DNA of 64,000 bases from an uncultured Rhodobacterales bacterium (GCA_964519035.1 CAZFKZ010000004.1:9820-73819); one strand, 5' to 3'. Counted from the stretch's first letter, positions 8,131 to 56,180 are shown. Program-made: numbers and translations. Notes: generated by a model from the letters alone, not told the origin.

Positions 8131-8206
8131 TGGTGCCGTCAACTGGATTTGAACCAGTGACCTCGTCATTACCAATGACGCGCTCTACCGCTGGAGCTAT
8201 GACGGC
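8131..8206 (-). tRNA. tRNA-Thr (anticodon GGU), CCA encoded
   Basis: The reverse complement folds as a cloverleaf: acceptor GCCGTCA/TGACGGC, D stem GCTC/GAGC, anticodon stem CGTCA/TGACG with loop TTGGTAA, T stem ACTGG/CCAGT, then A-CCA. Confidence 0.9.
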
Positions 8207-8323
8207 TTAATTATTGTACCCACAATTTAATTAACTTTTTGTGTATGACAAGTTTTAATTTTAGTATATTTTGATAAATCTAAGTTTACTTGTCTCGATT
8301 AGAATAGATAATGGAAGTTTAAT

Positions 8324-8488
8324 ATGATAAATAAAGATATAAAATCAAACGCTTTATCTGCTTCATTGAAGAATAACTTAAAATTACGAAAAAAACAAAT
8401 TTCTGAAAGAGATAAGAATGAAATTATTGGTAAACGTTTATCAAAAATTGGAGTATCAAGGCTTGAAACCAAAGATCAAAACAAATAG
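8324..8488 (+). CDS. Small basic hypothetical protein (54 aa), below the ORF-track cutoff
   Basis: ATG..TAG ORF MINKDIKSNALSASLKNNLKLRKKQISERDKNEIIGKRLSKIGVSRLETKDQNK fills the gap between tRNA-Thr and murA. No family recognised. Confidence 0.3.
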   Translation: MINKDIKSNALSASLKNNLKLRKKQISERDKNEIIGKRLSKIGVSRLETKDQNK

Positions 8489-8497
8489 TTATATTTT

Positions 8498-9781
8498 TTG
8501 GATATGAATTCTTACTCAACTCAAAATTATGAAAAGCTTTATATAACTGGTGAACAACCTCTTAAAGGACATATTAAAATAAGTGGTGCTAAAAATGCTG
8601 CATTACCTTTAATGGCATCGTCTTTGATCTTTAATACTGAATTTACACTTTCTAATGTTCCAGACTTAGCTGATACAAGGATAATGTCTAAATTACTAGT
8701 TGATTTAGGAATTAATGTAACAAACAAATTTGACAAAGTCATTTTTAATGGATCACCAAAAAGTAATGAAGCTTCTTATGATCTTGTGAGGCAAATGAGA
8801 GCATCAATTCTAATATTAGGTCCTTTGTTAGTTGCAAGAGGTTCCGCTCGTGTTCCCCTTCCAGGAGGATGTATGATCGGAACAAGACCGATTGATCTGC
8901 ATATACTCGTAATGGAAGCGCTCGGTGCTATTGTAACTTATGATTCTGGGTTTATTGTTGCATCCATAGGCACTGAAGGATTAAAAGGTGGGTTAATTGA
9001 TTTTCCTAAAGTATCTGTGGGCGCTACTGAAAGTGCAATAATGACTTCTGTTTTAGCTAAAGGCACAACTACTATACTAAATGCTGCTCAAGAGCCCGAA
9101 GTGGTTGATTTAGCAAAATGTTTAATTTCTGCTGGAGCAAAAATTAAAGGAGTTGGTACTAATGAAATTATTATAAATGGTATCAATGAACTTAATTCAG
9201 TTCATCATGAAATAGTCCCAGATAGAATAGAAGCTGGCTCTTTTGCTATAGCTGGATGTATGGTTGATAGTGACATAGTAATAAATGATATGAGACCAAG
9301 CGATTTAGAATTATTTTTAGAAAAATTAAAACAGACAGGAAGTGAAGTTGAAATAAGTAAAAGCTCCATATATATCAAATCATCAAAAAGACCAAAACCA
9401 GTTAATATAACAACTGAAGTTTACCCAGGATTTCCAACTGATTTACAAGCACAATTTATGGCATTGATGTCAATTGCCGATGGTAATGCTTTTATTAAGG
9501 AAACTATATTTGAAAATAGATTTATGCATGTTCCTGAGCTTTTACGAATGGGAGCAAATATTTCTCTTAATAATCAAACAGCAAATATCAAAGGTGTAAA
9601 AAGCTTGAAAGCTTCTAGAGTTATGGCTTCAGATCTGCGTGCTTCTATGTCGTTAATTTTAGCGGCCTTGGCTAGTGTTGGAACTAGTGAGATTGATGGA
9701 ATACACCATTTAGATAGAGGTTACGAGAAAATAGAAGATAAATTATCAAATATTGGAGCTGATATAAGAAGGTCAAAGTAA
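8498..9781 (+). CDS. murA: UDP-N-acetylglucosamine 1-carboxyvinyltransferase
   Basis: 427 aa with ISGAKNAALPLM, the active-site Cys loop LPGGCMIGTRPIDLH, and HLDRGYE near the C-terminus. The start may be ATG at 8504 rather than TTG at 8498. Confidence 0.95.
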   Translation: MDMNSYSTQNYEKLYITGEQPLKGHIKISGAKNAALPLMASSLIFNTEFTLSNVPDLADTRIMSKLLVDLGINVTNKFDKVIFNGSPKSNEASYDLVRQMRASILILGPLLVARGSARVPLPGGCMIGTRPIDLHILVMEALGAIVTYDSGFIVASIGTEGLKGGLIDFPKVSVGATESAIMTSVLAKGTTTILNAAQEPEVVDLAKCLISAGAKIKGVGTNEIIINGINELNSVHHEIVPDRIEAGSFAIAGCMVDSDIVINDMRPSDLELFLEKLKQTGSEVEISKSSIYIKSSKRPKPVNITTEVYPGFPTDLQAQFMALMSIADGNAFIKETIFENRFMHVPELLRMGANISLNNQTANIKGVKSLKASRVMASDLRASMSLILAALASVGTSEIDGIHHLDRGYEKIEDKLSNIGADIRRSK

Positions 9782-14398: not shown

Positions 14399-14474
<76 letters not shown>

Positions 14475-53495: not shown

Positions 53496-53550
53496 TACTT
53501 AACATATTAAGCTTATACATTTATGGCAATAAAATAATGCTTTATCATGT

Positions 53551-53868
53551 TTAGCCTAATTTTTTTGATACTGAAATCCAAGATTTACGTCTATCAATAT
53601 TATCTTTTGTAACTGTTATAAATTTTGTTTGTCGAAGCTTTTTCATGCTTCTAAAAAAAGTTGCACGCGGGTGAATATTTTTATCTAAAATTTCATCTAA
53701 AAGTATTCTTTTATTATTTTCTTTCATAAGTGATAGAATGTTTTCTAAAATATCTCTATCTGTAAAAGATAAAATATCCAATCCTACACTATTTTCTTTT
53801 TTCCTTAGCAATTCCCAGAGTTCAGAAAGAGATTGCTCTGTCTCTTTTAATATATTCTTAACTTCCAT
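53551..53868 (-). CDS. Small winged-helix (MarR-like) protein
   Basis: 105 aa. LDEILDKNIHPRATFFRSMKKLRQTKFITVTKDNIDRRKSWISVSKK resembles the recognition helix plus wing (D-x-R-R) of MarR proteins, but it is shorter than a full MarR. Confidence 0.45.
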   Translation of the reverse strand: MEVKNILKETEQSLSELWELLRKKENSVGLDILSFTDRDILENILSLMKENNKRILLDEILDKNIHPRATFFRSMKKLRQTKFITVTKDNIDRRKSWISVSKKLG

Positions 53869-54199
53869 TTATTATCCCCAACCATAATTAATAAAACTAT
53901 TAAATAATTTTACATTTATGGTTTGGATAGAAAAGAAATAGAAGAATAAATTTTAATATAAAAGGTGAAAAATGAGTTTGTTTTCTGTATTTAAGCTTTT
54001 CCCATCTAAATTTTTTTCTGATCATATTGAAATCAACTTAAGCATTTTATAAAAAAATCAAATTTAACATATCACCAAAAATATATAAAGTAAATGTTAC
54101 TGATTAAATTAAATCATATATATCAATGTGATACAAGAAATGTGTTTTAAAAATCATAAAATTATAGATTTCTAAAGTTTATGCGTATATACCCACATA

Positions 54200-54613
54200 A
54201 TGGAAAATAATGTATTATGTAATTGTGGTATTTTACGTCAATCATCACAAAAATTGACTGCTATTTATGATGAAGCTCTTAAATCAAGTGGTTTGAGAGT
54301 AACTCAATTCGCTGTTCTTAAAAATATTCATAAACTAGGTAAAACATCAATTACTGAATTAGACACTTATTTAGAACAAGATAGAAGCACAATAGGTCGA
54401 AATATTAGAATTTTAGAGAAGATCAAAGTTGTCTCTATCAATAAAAGTAGTGACAAAAGAGAATTTGAAATACTGATAACCAAATATGGAATTGAGTGTT
54501 TACAGTTGGCTAGAAAATCTTGGGAAGATATTAACATTAAAATATCTTCTAAATTGGGCAAAGAAAAACAAAAACAAATGATTGAAATAATGAATGTTAT
54601 CCAATCTATCTAA
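54200..54613 (+). CDS. MarR-family transcriptional regulator
   Basis: 137 aa with GLRVTQFAVLKNIHKLGKTSITELDTYLEQDRSTIGRNIRILEKIKVVSINKSSDKREFEILITKYG. Confidence 0.8.
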   Translation: MENNVLCNCGILRQSSQKLTAIYDEALKSSGLRVTQFAVLKNIHKLGKTSITELDTYLEQDRSTIGRNIRILEKIKVVSINKSSDKREFEILITKYGIECLQLARKSWEDINIKISSKLGKEKQKQMIEIMNVIQSI

Positions 54614-54632
54614 TGAATAAGGAGTTTATATC

Positions 54633-55091
54633 TTGGCAAAATCGTTCTTACTTTGGTGGATACAAATTGTAACTATTTGTTTCGCTATAGCGCTTATTTA
54701 TACTTATGGTTGGTTTGAAAAACTTTATGAAGCAGATCAAACTAAAATTAGCTTTATTATTATCATCATTTTTGCCGGGGCATCTATAGCATCAGGATAC
54801 ATAAGCTTTAAAAGTAGTAAAAGTTATCTAAAATTAAGCAATTATATTTGGTTTGCTTCAGAAACCATGATAACGCTTGGGTTAATTGGTACTGTTGCTG
54901 GGTTTCTTTTGATGCTTAGTTCTGCTTTTGAAAACCTGGACGTTGGGAATATTGAAAATGTTCAAAAAGTAATATCGAATATGGCTTTAGGTATGAGTAC
55001 CGCATTATGTACAACTTTAGCTGGTTTAGTAGGGAGTGTTTTAACTAAAATACAAATGGTTATTTTAGAGAATAATTTAGATAATGAATGA
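54633..55091 (+). CDS. Miniature MotA/TolQ/ExbB-like proton-channel family protein (152 aa, 4 TM)
   Basis: TTG start 8 nt after AAGGAG. The last two TM helices carry TLGLIGTVAGF and MALGMSTALCTTLAGLVG, matching the family signature as remembered. No large cytoplasmic domain. Confidence 0.6.
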   Translation: MAKSFLLWWIQIVTICFAIALIYTYGWFEKLYEADQTKISFIIIIIFAGASIASGYISFKSSKSYLKLSNYIWFASETMITLGLIGTVAGFLLMLSSAFENLDVGNIENVQKVISNMALGMSTALCTTLAGLVGSVLTKIQMVILENNLDNE

Positions 55092-55704
55092 TCCAAGGTA
55101 CAGATCATCTTTTGGGTTTATAGACCTATTATTTAATATGTTAATAGGCTTTGTCTTTTTATTTATGCTTGCTTTTTTGTTAATTAATCCTGTAGCTAAG
55201 AAAGAAACTATTAAACCAAAAGCTGAATATTTTATTGAATTAGAATGGGATGGAGAAAAACCATATGATCTAGATGTTTGGGTTAAAGATAACATGGGGC
55301 ACGTAGTGAGTTTTAGGAGACCTGATGATGCTTTAATTCATTTAGAAAGAGATGATTTAGGTACAATTAATGATACATATGTTGATCAAAACGGAAAAAC
55401 TGTATACTTGAAAGAAAATAGAGAAGTTGTAGCCATAAGGACACCGGAAGCTAGATCTTATCTAGTTACAATTCATTTTTATAATGCAAGAAAATTTCCA
55501 GCACCATTAACCCATGTTTCTGTAAAACTTATAAAAGTAAATCCATACAAAGAGGAGTATCATAAGAAACTTTTTTTTAGCGAAGAAGGTCAAGAGCTTC
55601 CAGCTTTTAAATTTAGAGTGGATTACAATGGTATTGTCCATGTTGATTCTACTAATGAATTAATTATTGATGGAGAAGTCATCAGGAAAAAAGGGGGTGC
55701 TTAA
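55084..55704 (+). CDS. ExbD/TolR-like N-terminal Asp-containing TM anchor fused to an unrecognised ~165-aa periplasmic domain
   Basis: 8-nt overlap with the upstream gene. RSSFGFIDLLFNMLIGFVFLFMLAFLL parallels the x-P-F/L-I/L-D-V-M/L-L-V-L-L TM segment of ExbD/TolR. The C-terminal domain (ELEWDGEKPYDLDVWVKD...) is not ExbD-like. Confidence 0.5.
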   Translation: MNDPRYRSSFGFIDLLFNMLIGFVFLFMLAFLLINPVAKKETIKPKAEYFIELEWDGEKPYDLDVWVKDNMGHVVSFRRPDDALIHLERDDLGTINDTYVDQNGKTVYLKENREVVAIRTPEARSYLVTIHFYNARKFPAPLTHVSVKLIKVNPYKEEYHKKLFFSEEGQELPAFKFRVDYNGIVHVDSTNELIIDGEVIRKKGGA

Positions 55705-56180
55705 TGTTAGATTTTTCAGTTAGTACTGGTCAATTAATTCTTATTTGGTCATTTGCTGGTGCTGTATGTTGTTTGCCTTTTTTTACTAAAAATATATGGC
55801 AAAGATTTTTTACGGTTCCAGTTATTTTCATTTCAATTTGGTTAAGTTTTTATACTAATTATGAATTCATTGGTCGTCCCATGGATGATAGGCCTCCAGA
55901 AAAATTTGTATATGAGCATCATGCGGTCATTTATGAAAGGAATGGGGATAGATTAATAATACTTTGGGCCTTAAAGGATGGGATTAATAAATTATTTAGA
56001 TTTCCATGGACTGAACAAAATGAAGAAGCATTGGATCAAGCTAAAAGAAATGCAGAAAGATCTGGTATTCCTCAAATGGGAGAAATTATAAAAGAAGATC
56101 CAGTTGAGAAAAGATCCCGTAATAATGAGTTTACTTTAAAAACATATAGATTTCCTTTTCAGGAAATGATGCCTAAGTAA
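55704..56180 (+). CDS. 2-TM membrane protein with an unknown soluble C-terminal domain
   Basis: TAATG 1-nt overlap with the upstream gene. Helices at about residues 9-27 and 35-53, then a charged domain (FVYEHHAVIYERNGDRLIILWALKDG...). No family recognised. Confidence 0.5.
   Translation: MLDFSVSTGQLILIWSFAGAVCCLPFFTKNIWQRFFTVPVIFISIWLSFYTNYEFIGRPMDDRPPEKFVYEHHAVIYERNGDRLIILWALKDGINKLFRFPWTEQNEEALDQAKRNAERSGIPQMGEIIKEDPVEKRSRNNEFTLKTYRFPFQEMMPK

What the first reader, a model, noticed from the sequence alone, without database searches (positions are those of the whole stretch)
54200..56180. MarR-linked three-gene membrane module: a miniature MotA/ExbB-like channel, an ExbD/TolR-like Asp-anchored protein with an unknown periplasmic domain, and a 2-TM partner
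Four co-directional genes are packed with a 19-nt gap, an 8-nt overlap (ATGAATGA) and a 1-nt overlap (TAATG), so they are very likely one transcript with translational coupling.

- Gene 1 (54633-55091) is only 152 aa with four predicted TM helices. Its last two helices carry TLGLIGTVAGF and MALGMSTALCTTLAGLVG, which match the G-L-x-G-T-V-x-G / A-L-x-T-T-x-x-G-L signature of the MotA/TolQ/ExbB proton-channel family (PF01618, from memory). It lacks the cytoplasmic domain of ExbB/TolQ/MotA/ZorA and the usual Pro in the final helix.
- Gene 2 (55084-55704) begins RSSFGFIDLLFNMLIGFVFLFMLAFLL. This is a single N-terminal TM helix with an Asp near its cytoplasmic end, in the same local context as the essential Asp of E. 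coli ExbD (D25), TolR (D23) and MotB (D32). Its ~165-aa C-terminal part (ELEWDGEKPYDLDVWVKDNMGHVVSFRRP...) looks neither like an ExbD/TolR periplasmic domain nor like an OmpA-type peptidoglycan-binding domain.
- Gene 3 (55704-56180) has two TM helices and a soluble domain I cannot place.

No TonB, TolA/TolB/Pal, flagellar, gliding or Zorya-effector genes are nearby. Taken together, this looks like the core of a 5:2-type ion-driven stator coupled to an unknown output and controlled by a dedicated MarR regulator. That would be an unusual accessory item in a streamlined genome.
Basis: partly seen in the sequence, partly recalled or inferred. Interest (0 to 1): 0.8.

Follow-up and report, generated by a model that had tools for sequence, protein, structure and literature searches.

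The report
Phage-borne three-protein miniature ion motor
Three tightly coupled membrane-protein genes in this SAR116 marine bacterium encode an undescribed, stripped-down relative of the proton-driven Mot/Exb/Tol motors; it faces the periplasm and is carried mostly by phages, which would make it a candidate virus-encoded ion-driven motor.

Summary
Genes at 54633-55091 (A), 55084-55704 (B) and 55704-56180 (C) overlap by 8 nt and 1 nt.

- **A:** a 152-aa, four-helix protein that passes the Pfam MotA_ExbB cut-off. It keeps every channel Gly/Thr (125/125 homologs) but has almost no cytoplasmic mass.
- **B:** one N-terminal helix with an Asp conserved in 361/361 homologs, then a periplasmic beta-sandwich with an invariant acidic cluster. 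It shows no detectable homology to ExbD/TolR, OmpA-type domains or TerD.
- **C:** a two-helix anchor, a small periplasmic domain and a disordered tail ending in a conserved Pro-Lys.
- **Conservation:** the A-B-C order holds in 152/161 loci, and no fourth gene is conserved.

The window is SAR116, not Pelagibacterales. MarR sits in a strain-variable slot and is absent from most relatives. The family is mainly phage-borne: 382 IMG/VR contigs beside T4-type replication genes, and 29 cultured rhizobiophage records including phage 16-3.

In SAR116 the cassette is chromosomal, compositionally ameliorated and under strong purifying selection.

I read it as a self-contained 5:2-type, ion-driven, periplasm-directed motor of a new family. 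Its biological role, possibly superinfection exclusion or envelope defence, is inferred. The stoichiometry is untested.

The parts
54633..55091 (+). Gene A: minimal MotA/TolQ/ExbB-family subunit. 152 aa, four TM helices, N-in/C-in, no cytoplasmic domain. Channel motifs are LGLIGTVAGF in TM3 (T87 codon 54891-54893) and GMSTALCTTLAGL in TM4 (T127/T128 codons 55011-55016).
   Evidence: - PF01618 32.5 bits, above the gathering cut-off of 22.9; 14/14 family members match.
- G83, G86, T87, G120, A124, T127, T128, G131 and Q141 are invariant in 125/125 homologs.
- Equally remote from MotA, TolQ and ExbB in the PDB, 17-19 bits each.
- Weak ZorA membrane-core hits in 11/14 members.
- Topology assigned by the positive-inside rule over 101 homologs.
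55084..55704 (+). Gene B: axle-like subunit. 206 aa, with a short basic N-terminus, one TM helix carrying Asp14 (codon 55123-55125) and Asn18, an INP exit motif, a linker of about 12 residues, and a periplasmic beta-sandwich of about 160 aa with an invariant acidic cluster (D62, D64, D90, D91, D97, E114).
   Evidence: - D14 is present in 361/361 homologs; D62 and D64 in 368/368; D90 in 369/369; D91 in 368/369; E114 in 367/369.
- AlphaFold2 model has pLDDT 77, with helix 7-34 followed by an all-beta domain.
- Foldseek finds only generic beta-sandwich matches.
- No Pfam, PDB-sequence, ExbD or TerD profile match.
- The family has 2039 representatives at 50% identity.
55704..56180 (+). Gene C: third subunit. 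158 aa, N-out, with two TM helices joined by a short basic cytoplasmic loop and a G57-x-P59 motif at the periplasmic exit. A small beta-meander plus helix domain (about 73-120) follows, then a charged disordered tail (123-158) ending in the conserved ...FP...PK.
   Evidence: - The downstream ORF belongs to one family in 151/156 loci.
- G57 is present in 236/237 homologs; the terminal Lys in 179/179 where present; PK lies within the last 14 residues in 205/246.
- Topology: N-terminus K+R 0.04, loop K+R 1.65 and D+E 0.09.
- AlphaFold2 model is low confidence, pLDDT 58.
- No Pfam hit.
54619..54635 (+). Shine-Dalgarno site AAGGAG (54619-54624), an 8-nt spacer, and the TTG start codon of gene A. 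This is the left boundary of the DNA conserved with other SAR116 strains.
   Evidence: The sequence is read. The same AAGGAG...TTG arrangement occurs in relatives. DNA homology with relatives begins at about 54618.
54200..54613 (+). MarR-family gene. It is a strain-variable neighbour, not part of the conserved module. It may still be co-transcribed with the module in this strain.
   Evidence: - PF01047 27.2 bits, above the cut-off of 24.6.
- Found upstream of gene A in only about 8 of 55 SAR116 loci and in none of the others.
- No terminator-like site is predicted between it and gene A.
53510..54618 (.). Strain-variable, lower-GC slot between the conserved EamA transporter gene and the cassette. 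In this window it holds a 105-aa ORF (53551-53868, minus strand) and MarR.
   Evidence: The blastn homology break against 55 close loci is. GC is 0.23-0.25 against 0.30 in the flanks. Other strains carry a 74-84 aa ORF in this slot that looks DUF1127-like by eye (not scanned).

Best explanation
Genes A, B and C encode a self-contained inner-membrane machine of a previously undescribed branch of the MotA/ExbB/TolQ superfamily of ion-driven 5:2 motors.

Shown:
- A is a bona fide member of the channel family, reduced to its four helices, with every pore-lining Gly/Thr invariant.
- B has the architecture of the axle subunits (MotB/ExbD/TolR/ZorB): it is encoded immediately downstream with an overlapping start, and it has one N-in helix with a universally conserved Asp near its cytoplasmic end. 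Its periplasmic part is instead an unrelated beta-sandwich with an invariant acidic, Ca2+-site-like cluster.
- C is an obligatory third membrane protein whose soluble part is periplasmic.
- Nothing substantial faces the cytoplasm.
- No fourth gene is conserved.
- The family is carried mainly by phages, in their early/replication gene blocks, and has been fixed in a few bacterial lineages including SAR116.

Inferred:
- A forms a pentamer around a B dimer.
- Ion flow through the Asp/Thr path turns A relative to B.
- Because there is no cytoplasmic surface, the work is delivered in the periplasm. It would go through B's beta-sandwich, sitting just above the membrane on a 12-residue linker, and through C. 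C probably rides on the outside of the A ring, as TonB and TolA do, and uses its flexible tail with the conserved terminal motif.

Most speculative: the biological role. Phages express the genes alongside replication genes, and cells keep them as an isolated cassette. I therefore favour an envelope-level protective function, such as superinfection exclusion or blocking of incoming phage or DNA at the inner membrane or periplasm. In SAR116 this would have been domesticated as a standing defence or envelope function.
For: - **Family membership of A:**
- **Asp and Asn in the B helix, and the acidic cluster:**
- **Register of B Asp14 with ExbD Asp25:** seen in the hhalign output, though not significant.
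- **Trio conservation:** order and overlaps hold in 152/161 loci; homology of the flanking ORFs is 154/156 and 151/156; no fourth conserved gene exists, the next most common neighbour occurring in 35/106 loci.
- **Periplasm-facing topology:**
- **Phage carriage:** 382 IMG/VR contigs; neighbours are family-B DNA polymerase, T4 RNase H, ClpP, UvsX and DnaB-like helicase; 25-29 cultured rhizobiophage records with the trio inside replication modules; a diverged copy in temperate phage 16-3.
- **SAR116 copy is chromosomal:** it is ameliorated, syntenic and under purifying selection, and it is closest to a marine viral cluster at 49% identity.
- **Published precedent:** TolQ-like pentamers paired with non-ExbD partners bearing an Asp 'transpore helix' are described in PMC12204202, section 8.
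Against: - No oligomer model or stoichiometry could be computed, so 5:2 is by analogy only.
- B shows no statistically detectable homology to ExbD/TolR (hhalign probability 0.2%; no PF02472 hit). The axle role therefore rests on architecture and gene context.
- A lacks the cytoplasmic domain present in MotA, ExbB, TolQ, GldL and ZorA. It also lacks the Pro found in the channel helices of the classical families.
- The C model is poor (pLDDT 58). C lacks the His/SHLS anchor that docks TonB and TolA on their motors.
- Nothing here tests function. A superinfection-exclusion or defence role is suggested only by the gene neighbourhood in phages. There is no robust hit to any known defence family: PDC-M11A matched in only 2/30 members.
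- Cellular copies sit among housekeeping genes rather than in defence islands.
Confidence: 0.55

Rival explanations
1. Ton/Tol-type force transducer. The A5B2 motor pulls on C, which acts as a short TonB/TolA analogue. C would reach a peptidoglycan- or outer-membrane-associated target, such as a receptor or a lipoprotein. Phages would use it to keep or alter outer-membrane function during infection, and cells would use it as an extra Tol/Ton paralogue.
For: - The gene order A-B-C mirrors tolQ-tolR-tolA.
- C is membrane-anchored with a periplasmic domain, a charged disordered linker and a conserved terminal motif.
- In Geminicoccaceae-type homologs the tail is Pro-rich.
- All carriers that can be identified are diderm bacteria or their phages.
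- New non-TonB transducers next to motor genes are documented in PMC12204202.
Against: - C has two TM helices, no conserved His/SHLS and no TonB_C or TolA domain.
- Its tail is only about 35 residues, which is short for spanning the periplasm.
- No outer-membrane partner gene co-occurs.
Confidence: 0.2
2. Gated ion leak rather than a motor. The complex is a plugged channel whose periplasmic sandwich senses a signal, such as Ca2+, envelope damage or ejected phage material. It then opens to depolarise the membrane, blocking PMF-dependent DNA entry by competitors or timing lysis.
For: - Only the ion path and the periplasmic acidic cluster are strictly invariant.
- There is no cytoplasmic output surface.
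- The genes lie in phage early/replication regions, which is where I recall T4 superinfection-immunity genes such as imm being located (memory, not tested).
Against: - An obligatory third subunit with its own conserved motifs is unnecessary for a simple leak.
- Long-term retention in streamlined SAR116 genomes under purifying selection argues against a merely toxic channel.
Confidence: 0.15
3. One reading: a cellular accessory stator under dedicated MarR control, coupled to an unknown output encoded elsewhere in the bacterial genome.
For: In this window MarR precedes gene A by 19 nt, with no predicted terminator between them.
Against: - MarR is absent from most SAR116 relatives and from all other lineages.
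- The cassette works in phage genomes that share no other gene with SAR116, so it needs no cell-encoded partner operon.
Confidence: 0.05
4. Interference decoy. A tail-less, ZorA-like mini-subunit made by phages would co-assemble with and poison host 5:2 motors (Zorya, Tol or Ton) as an anti-defence measure.
For: The A family hits ZorA membrane-core profiles in 11/14 members and looks like a ZorA core without the tail.
Against: - The hits are weak (E about 1e-6) and no better than those to MotA, TolQ or ExbB.
- The system brings its own B and C partners with invariant functional residues.
- Cellular lineages keep it stably.
Confidence: 0.05

Closest known systems
TolQ-TolR-TolA and ExbB-ExbD-TonB (PMF-driven periplasmic force transduction)
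   Same: - Three co-transcribed inner-membrane proteins in the order channel, Asp-helix protein, anchored periplasmic protein.
- A matches PF01618 and shares the TM Gly/Thr motifs.
- B has the Asp in the same helix position as ExbD D25 and TolR D23.
- The output faces the periplasm.
   Different: - A has four TM helices (MotA-like topology) and no cytoplasmic domain.
- B's periplasmic domain is a beta-sandwich with no detectable homology to ExbD/TolR.
- C has two TM helices, no His anchor, no TonB_C or TolA domain and only a short tail.
- The system is carried mainly by phages.
TolQ-like pentamers paired with Asp-bearing 'transpore helix' vWA proteins (PMC12204202, 2025)
   Same: A MotA/TolQ-family gene is tightly linked to a non-ExbD partner. 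That partner supplies the Asp-containing helix and carries a novel periplasmic domain. Both are predicted, uncharacterised systems.
   Different: The partner domain here is a beta-sandwich, not vWA. Here a single B gene plus an obligatory third protein is present, whereas those vWA genes occur in heterologous pairs. That paper does not mention phage carriage, a minimal four-TM A subunit or this family.
ZorA-ZorB core of the Zorya anti-phage system
   Same: A gives weak but consistent profile similarity to the ZorA membrane core. ZorAB is likewise a MotAB-like complex connected to phage-host conflict.
   Different: There is no ZorA cytoplasmic tail, no ZorC/D/E effectors and no OmpA-like peptidoglycan-binding domain in B. 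This system is encoded by phages rather than being known to act against them.
MotA-MotB / PomA-PomB flagellar stators
   Same: A has the four-TM N-in/C-in topology. The best single PDB hit is a MotA (8gqy). B has an Asp-bearing single-pass helix.
   Different: There is no torque-generating cytoplasmic domain, no plug helix, no OmpA-like domain and no flagellar genes. The channel-helix prolines are absent.
GldL-GldM / PorL-PorM (gliding and type IX secretion motor)
   Same: In both, a small membrane-embedded ring subunit drives a periplasm-directed partner, so the work is done in the periplasm by the axle protein.
   Different: There is no sequence relationship to GldL or GldM. GldM is a long multi-domain periplasmic shaft, whereas B here is a single compact sandwich.

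Membership tests
MotA/TolQ/ExbB proton channel family (PF01618) - gene A | Profile HMM score above the curated gathering threshold | tested here: met
   32.5 bits against a cut-off of 22.9, E 8e-8. All 14 of 14 diverse homologs match. Phage homologs are pre-labelled PF01618.
MotA/TolQ/ExbB proton channel family (PF01618) - gene A | Conserved Gly/Thr residues in the last two TM helices that line the ion path | tested here: met
   G83, G86, T87, G120, A124, T127, T128 and G131 are invariant in 125/125 homologs. They align with GMIGT and GMAVALITTLYG of MotA 8gqy.
MotA/TolQ/ExbB proton channel family (PF01618) - gene A | Sizeable cytoplasmic domain between TM helices and/or at the C-terminus, as in MotA, ExbB, TolQ and ZorA | tested here: not met
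   The cytoplasmic loop in this protein is about 20 residues and the C-terminal tail about 15. The family means are 26 and 16. Only the soil Alphaproteobacteria versions carry an insert.
MotA/TolQ/ExbB proton channel family (PF01618) - gene A | Pentameric ring enclosing a dimer of the partner helix (5:2) | not testable with these tools
   No multimer structure prediction was available.
ExbD/TolR (PF02472) - gene B | Profile HMM match or demonstrable sequence homology | tested here: not met
   No Pfam hit at E<=1 for the window protein or for 30 homologs. hhalign against PDB-verified E. coli ExbD plus TolR gives probability 0.2%.
ExbD/TolR/MotB/ZorB-type axle subunit (functional class) - gene B | Single N-terminal TM helix with an essential Asp near its cytoplasmic end, encoded directly downstream of the channel gene | tested here: met
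   D14 is present in 361/361 homologs. The gene lies immediately downstream, with an overlapping start in most loci. The Asp aligns in register with ExbD D25 (alignment only).
MotB/ZorB - gene B | OmpA-like peptidoglycan-binding periplasmic domain | tested here: not met
   No OmpA hit. The model is an all-beta sandwich. One of 30 homologs gives a ZorB hit at E 0.007.
TerD Ca2+-binding beta-sandwich - periplasmic domain of gene B | Sequence-profile or fold similarity to TerD | tested here: inconclusive
   The Foldseek top PDB hits are TerD-family entries 2qng and 2qz7 (E 5e-3, TM 0.44-0.46), and their family membership is confirmed. However, there is no Pfam TerD hit, hhalign gives probability 0.2%, and the viral library returns generic BACON, CUB and galactose-binding-like sandwiches instead.
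TonB/TolA force transducers - gene C | Single N-terminal TM helix with a conserved His (SHLS motif) that docks on the motor | tested here: not met
   C has two TM helices. No His is conserved: only 90/246 homologs have any His in the first 55 residues.
TonB/TolA force transducers - gene C | TonB_C or TolA C-terminal domain | tested here: not met
   No Pfam or NCBIfam hit.
TonB/TolA force transducers - gene C | Third gene after the motor pair; periplasmic, with an extended or disordered linker | tested here: met
   The third position holds in 151/156 loci. The periplasmic orientation comes from the positive-inside rule. The tail 123-158 is disordered.
Zorya anti-phage system | ZorA with a long cytoplasmic tail plus ZorC/D or ZorE effector genes nearby | tested here: not met
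   Only the ZorA membrane core is matched, weakly. No effector genes are in the window and no fourth gene is conserved.
MarR family transcription regulator - upstream gene | Profile HMM above threshold | tested here: met
   PF01047 27.2 bits against a cut-off of 24.6.
MarR as dedicated regulator of the cassette | Conserved linkage of MarR with the cassette | tested here: not met
   MarR is present in about 8 of 55 SAR116 loci and in 0 of 106 other loci. It lies in the variable slot.

The most novel reading that the evidence does not exclude
This is the first family of virus-encoded ion-driven rotary (5:2-type) motors. It would be a minimal, cytoplasm-less A5B2(+C) machine that T4-like marine phages and rhizobiophages install in the host inner membrane early in infection to do PMF-powered work in the periplasm, for example excluding competing phages. 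A few bacterial lineages, including SAR116, would have captured and kept it.
Probability: 0.4. Interest if true: 0.85.

Novelty: new variant of a known kind. Interest (0 to 1): 0.72.

Why it matters
Ion-driven 5:2 motors (Mot, Exb, Tol, Gld, Zor) are a small set of machines that carry membrane energy to other compartments. Every new output has so far revealed new biology.

This family offers three things:
- **A minimal ring subunit.** At 152 aa and four helices it is an unusually small member of the family, which helps define what the motor core actually needs.
- **A new kind of axle protein and an obligatory third partner.** Both are periplasmic.
- **A home in phage genomes.** I found no description of a phage-encoded member in the searched literature.

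If phages deploy a PMF-powered machine in the host envelope, that opens a testable question about what energy-requiring step of infection or competition happens in the periplasm. Cultured, genetically tractable carriers exist: phage 16-3 of Sinorhizobium meliloti and the RHph rhizobiophages.

The strict retention in streamlined SAR116 genomes suggests ecological importance in the surface ocean.

Tried and rejected
- **TerD homology of the B domain.** Foldseek hinted at it. A profile-profile test against PDB-verified TerD sequences gave probability 0.2%, and Pfam gave no TerD hit. I keep it only as 'beta-sandwich with an acidic cluster'.
- **ExbD/TolR homology of B.** No Pfam hit was found, and hhalign was not significant.
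- **Link to defence candidate PDC-M11A.** The single hit at E 9e-5 is not reproduced across the family, appearing in 2/30 members. Rejected.
- **PPC and DUF2135 domains.** Only 3/30 and 1/30 members hit them weakly. Not used.
- **Structure of C.** Even with a 34-sequence alignment the model reached only pLDDT 58. I therefore ran no fold search on it.
- **Prophage origin of the window copy.** Rejected: the flanks are metabolic genes, GC is ameliorated and the site is syntenic across species.
- **MarR as part of the system.** Rejected by synteny.
- **Sequence match of B to any solved structure.** None was found at E<=10.
- **Promoter and terminator scan.** Uninformative: promoter-like sites were no more frequent than in shuffled sequence, and no terminators were found.
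- **Literature.** Six full-text searches and four papers found no description of this trio or of a phage-encoded MotA/ExbB-type system. One apparent hit was the unrelated T4 MotA transcription factor.
- **Cultured marine phages.** tblastn with four divergent B queries found only rhizobiophages.
Full report
**1. The observation**

They are MarR 54200-54613, gene A 54633-55091 (TTG start, 152 aa), gene B 55084-55704 (206 aa) and gene C 55704-56180 (158 aa).

The sequence shows a 19-nt MarR-A spacer with AAGGAG at 54619-54624. It also shows the 8-nt A/B overlap ATGAATGA and the 1-nt B/C overlap TAATG. A hydropathy scan gives four TM helices in A and one in B. C has two.

These are real genes:
- Against SAR116 relatives the DNA is only about 78% identical, while protein B is 95% identical.
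- Nei-Gojobori dN/dS is 0.03-0.16 for all three genes, with saturated dS.
- The TTG start and its Shine-Dalgarno site recur in relatives.

**2. Whose genome**

A genome-wide scan placed the window in the SAR116 clade, with relatives labelled Ca. Levibacter and 'SAR116 cluster'. It is not Pelagibacterales.

The flanks are ordinary metabolic genes: cupin, EamA transporter, luciferase-like monooxygenase, aldo-keto reductase, quinone oxidoreductase and a chorismate-binding enzyme. Those flanks are syntenic in other SAR116 species. The cassette GC (0.30-0.315) equals that of the flanks. It is therefore not a prophage or a recent island.

**3. MarR**

DNA homology with 55 close loci stops at about 53510 and resumes at about 54618, just before the Shine-Dalgarno site of gene A. 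In this window the intervening slot has lower GC and holds a 105-aa minus-strand ORF plus MarR. Other strains carry a small ORF there instead that looks DUF1127-like by eye.

MarR is detected upstream of A in only about 8 of 55 SAR116 loci and never elsewhere. It may be co-transcribed here, since no terminator is predicted. It is not part of the system.

**4. Gene A**

- It passes the Pfam gathering threshold for MotA_ExbB (32.5 against 22.9 bits), as do 14/14 diverse homologs.
- A family profile hits solved MotA (8gqy), TolQ (8odt) and ExbB (5sv0) about equally weakly, at 17-19 bits, and only over the last two helices.
- It hits ZorA membrane-core models weakly in 11/14 members.
- G83, G86, T87, G120, A124, T127, T128, G131 and Q141 are invariant in 125/125 unique homologs.
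- Charge statistics over 101 homologs give an N-in/C-in four-helix topology. In this protein the cytoplasmic loop is about 20 residues and the C-terminal tail about 15 (family means 26 and 16). There is no cytoplasmic domain.
- Soil alphaproteobacterial versions carry an insert at that position.

**5. Gene B**

It has no Pfam, NCBIfam or PHROG family and no sequence match to any PDB chain. The family is nevertheless large: 2039 representatives at 50% identity, uniformly about 200 aa.

Asp14 is present in 361/361 unique homologs that cover the position, and Asn18 in 337/362.

AlphaFold2 (pLDDT 77) gives a helix at 7-34, a 12-residue linker and an all-beta domain. That domain carries an invariant cluster: D62 368/368, D64 368/368, D90 369/369, D91 368/369, G93, D97, N112, E114 367/369 and R119.

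On the fold:
- Foldseek's best PDB matches are TerD-family sandwiches (E 5e-3, TM about 0.45).
- Profile-profile comparison with PDB-verified TerD sequences gives no support.
- The viral structure library returns generic BACON, CUB and galactose-binding-type sandwiches.
- I therefore call it a beta-sandwich binding module with a probable metal or ligand site, and nothing more specific.

On the anchor: hhalign against PDB-verified ExbD plus TolR puts D14 in register with ExbD D25 ('gFiDLL' against 'pFIDVM'). The probability is 0.2%. B works like an axle subunit by architecture and context, but membership in the ExbD/TolR family is not shown.

**6. Gene C**

It has no family hit, and word-indexed search finds only close relatives. 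Iterative profile search shows that the ORF downstream of B is homologous in 151/156 loci.

Conserved features:
- G57 (236/237) and P59 at the exit of TM2.
- I85 and W88 in a strand, and P101.
- A terminal Pro-Lys: the Lys in 179/179 where present, and PK in the last 14 residues of 205/246 homologs.

The N-terminus is acidic (K+R 0.04) and the inter-helix loop is basic (K+R 1.65, D+E 0.09). The soluble part is therefore periplasmic. The model is weak (pLDDT 58), showing two helices, a beta-meander plus helix at 73-120, and a disordered tail at 123-158. There is no conserved His of the TonB/TolA anchor type.

**7. The unit**

Across 161 loci with a complete B gene, 152 have A upstream and C downstream on the same strand. 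The modal junctions are -8 and -1 nt. In 106 non-SAR116 loci the three genes are present in 101, 106 and 99 loci, while the next most frequent neighbour occurs in 35. The system is thus a self-sufficient three-gene cassette.

**8. Phages**

- A scan of IMG/VR found 382 viral contigs encoding a B relative.
- Recurrent neighbours are family-B DNA polymerase, T4 RNase H/5'-3' exonuclease and ClpP. UvsX and a DnaB-type helicase appear in L167. Heme oxygenase, bilin reductase and ClpS appear in L164-L166.
- Two 'cellular MAG' loci (L056, L057) are evidently phage contigs.
- Among cultured phages, tblastn finds the family only in rhizobiophages, with 25-29 records. These span the 150-kb Pootjesviridae, the 68-kb RHph_N3_19 group, the 171-kb RHph_I1_18 and the classic temperate phage 16-3.
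- In the annotated genomes the trio lies among replication and early genes and is labelled hypothetical throughout.
- Phage 16-3 has a split version, p038 (A), p040 (B, D-x-L-F-N kept) and p042 (C), with two small genes interleaved.

By identity clustering, the SAR116 B proteins group with a 44-member marine viral cluster at about 49% identity. They do not group with the other three cellular lineages: MarineAlpha6 (labelled Pelagibacteraceae), soil Alphaproteobacteria/Geminicoccaceae and Desulfobacterales. Those three cluster together. The direction of transfer is undetermined.

**9. Mechanism**

Shown:
- An A subunit of the ion-channel family with an intact pore signature.
- A partner with the universally conserved Asp helix.
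- A third, periplasm-facing membrane partner.
- No cytoplasmic mass.

Inferred by analogy with solved MotAB, ExbBD and TolQR complexes (established knowledge, reviewed in PMC9389320 and PMC12905483):
- A5 surrounds B2.
- Protonation cycles of the Asp against the Thr ring drive relative rotation.
- Work is delivered in the periplasm through B's sandwich and through C.

A published precedent exists for TolQ-like pentamers that use non-ExbD partners with an Asp 'transpore helix' (PMC12204202). The kind is therefore known, while this family, its third subunit and its phage carriage are not described there.

The biological role is the weakest step. Placement with early/replication genes in phages, plus stable stand-alone retention in cells, leads me to favour an envelope-level protective role such as superinfection exclusion or defence. 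The rivals are a Ton/Tol-like pull on an envelope target via C, a gated depolarising leak, and a decoy against host motors.

**10. Literature**

Six full-text searches and four papers gave no description of this trio or of any phage-encoded MotA/ExbB-type system. The library is incomplete, so absence from it is not proof of novelty.

**11. Verdict**

- The thing is a new variant of a known kind, a 5:2-type ion-driven machine. It has an unusually minimal ring subunit, a novel axle domain and an obligatory third partner, and it is unexpectedly distributed mainly on phages.
- Stoichiometry, ion coupling and function remain untested.

Noticed in passing
window 53510-54618: A strain-variable, lower-GC slot (0.23-0.25 against 0.30) lies between the EamA transporter gene and the cassette. 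Here it holds a 105-aa minus-strand ORF (53551-53868) with no Pfam hit that looks winged-helix-like by eye, and it is divergent from MarR. Other SAR116 strains carry a 74-84 aa ORF there instead that looks DUF1127-like by eye (not scanned).
   Followed up: partly
L003-L034 (SAR116 single-cell genome contigs), first 50-150 nt: About 25 independent SAG/MAG contigs end 50-150 nt upstream of gene A, in extremely AT-rich DNA. This is the same boundary as the variable slot, and it suggests a systematic assembly break or hypervariable junction.
   Followed up: partly
L056 (labelled Chloroflexota MAG) and L057 (labelled Legionellales MAG): Both contigs carry ClpP or a family-B DNA polymerase together with strings of small co-directional genes around the trio. 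They look like phage contigs mis-binned into MAGs.
   Followed up: partly
L164:305-1526, and the same genes in L165: Heme oxygenase and a ferredoxin-dependent bilin reductase, together with ClpS and ClpP, lie a few kb from the trio on phage-like contigs. From memory this resembles the pigment-gene cassettes reported on uncultured marine phages.
   Followed up: no
L163 (phage 16-3) 2184-5072; L161 (RHph_N3_19) 8285-8977: Phage 16-3 has a split version of the system, p038-p039-p040-p041-p042. A signal-peptide-bearing trypsin-like protease (p036) and a 44-aa TM peptide (p037) lie just upstream. RHph_N3_19 also encodes a trypsin-like peptidase about 3 kb downstream of its trio. A possible periplasmic protease association was not tested.
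   Followed up: no
L065:4169-5008, L077:4238-4996: In soil Alphaproteobacteria/Geminicoccaceae the gene A homolog is 250-290 aa. It has a 60-100 aa cytoplasmic insert between TM2 and TM3 and a C-terminal extension, so some cellular versions do have cytoplasmic mass. In these genomes the trio sits next to what look, by eye from the N-terminal sequences, like trehalose-6-phosphate synthase and glucoamylase genes.
   Followed up: no
non-SAR116 loci, positions -2 and +2 relative to gene B (e.g. L081:3924-4235, L057:6161-6418): A protein of about 107 aa with no family hit precedes the trio in 35/106 loci. A protein of about 88 aa (phrog_12534, weakly phrog_639 'transcriptional regulator') follows it in 32/106 loci. 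Both may be lineage-specific accessory or regulatory genes.
   Followed up: partly
window 8134-8206 (-) and 14399-14471 (+): These two tRNA genes are the only Rfam matches in the 64-kb window.
   Followed up: no
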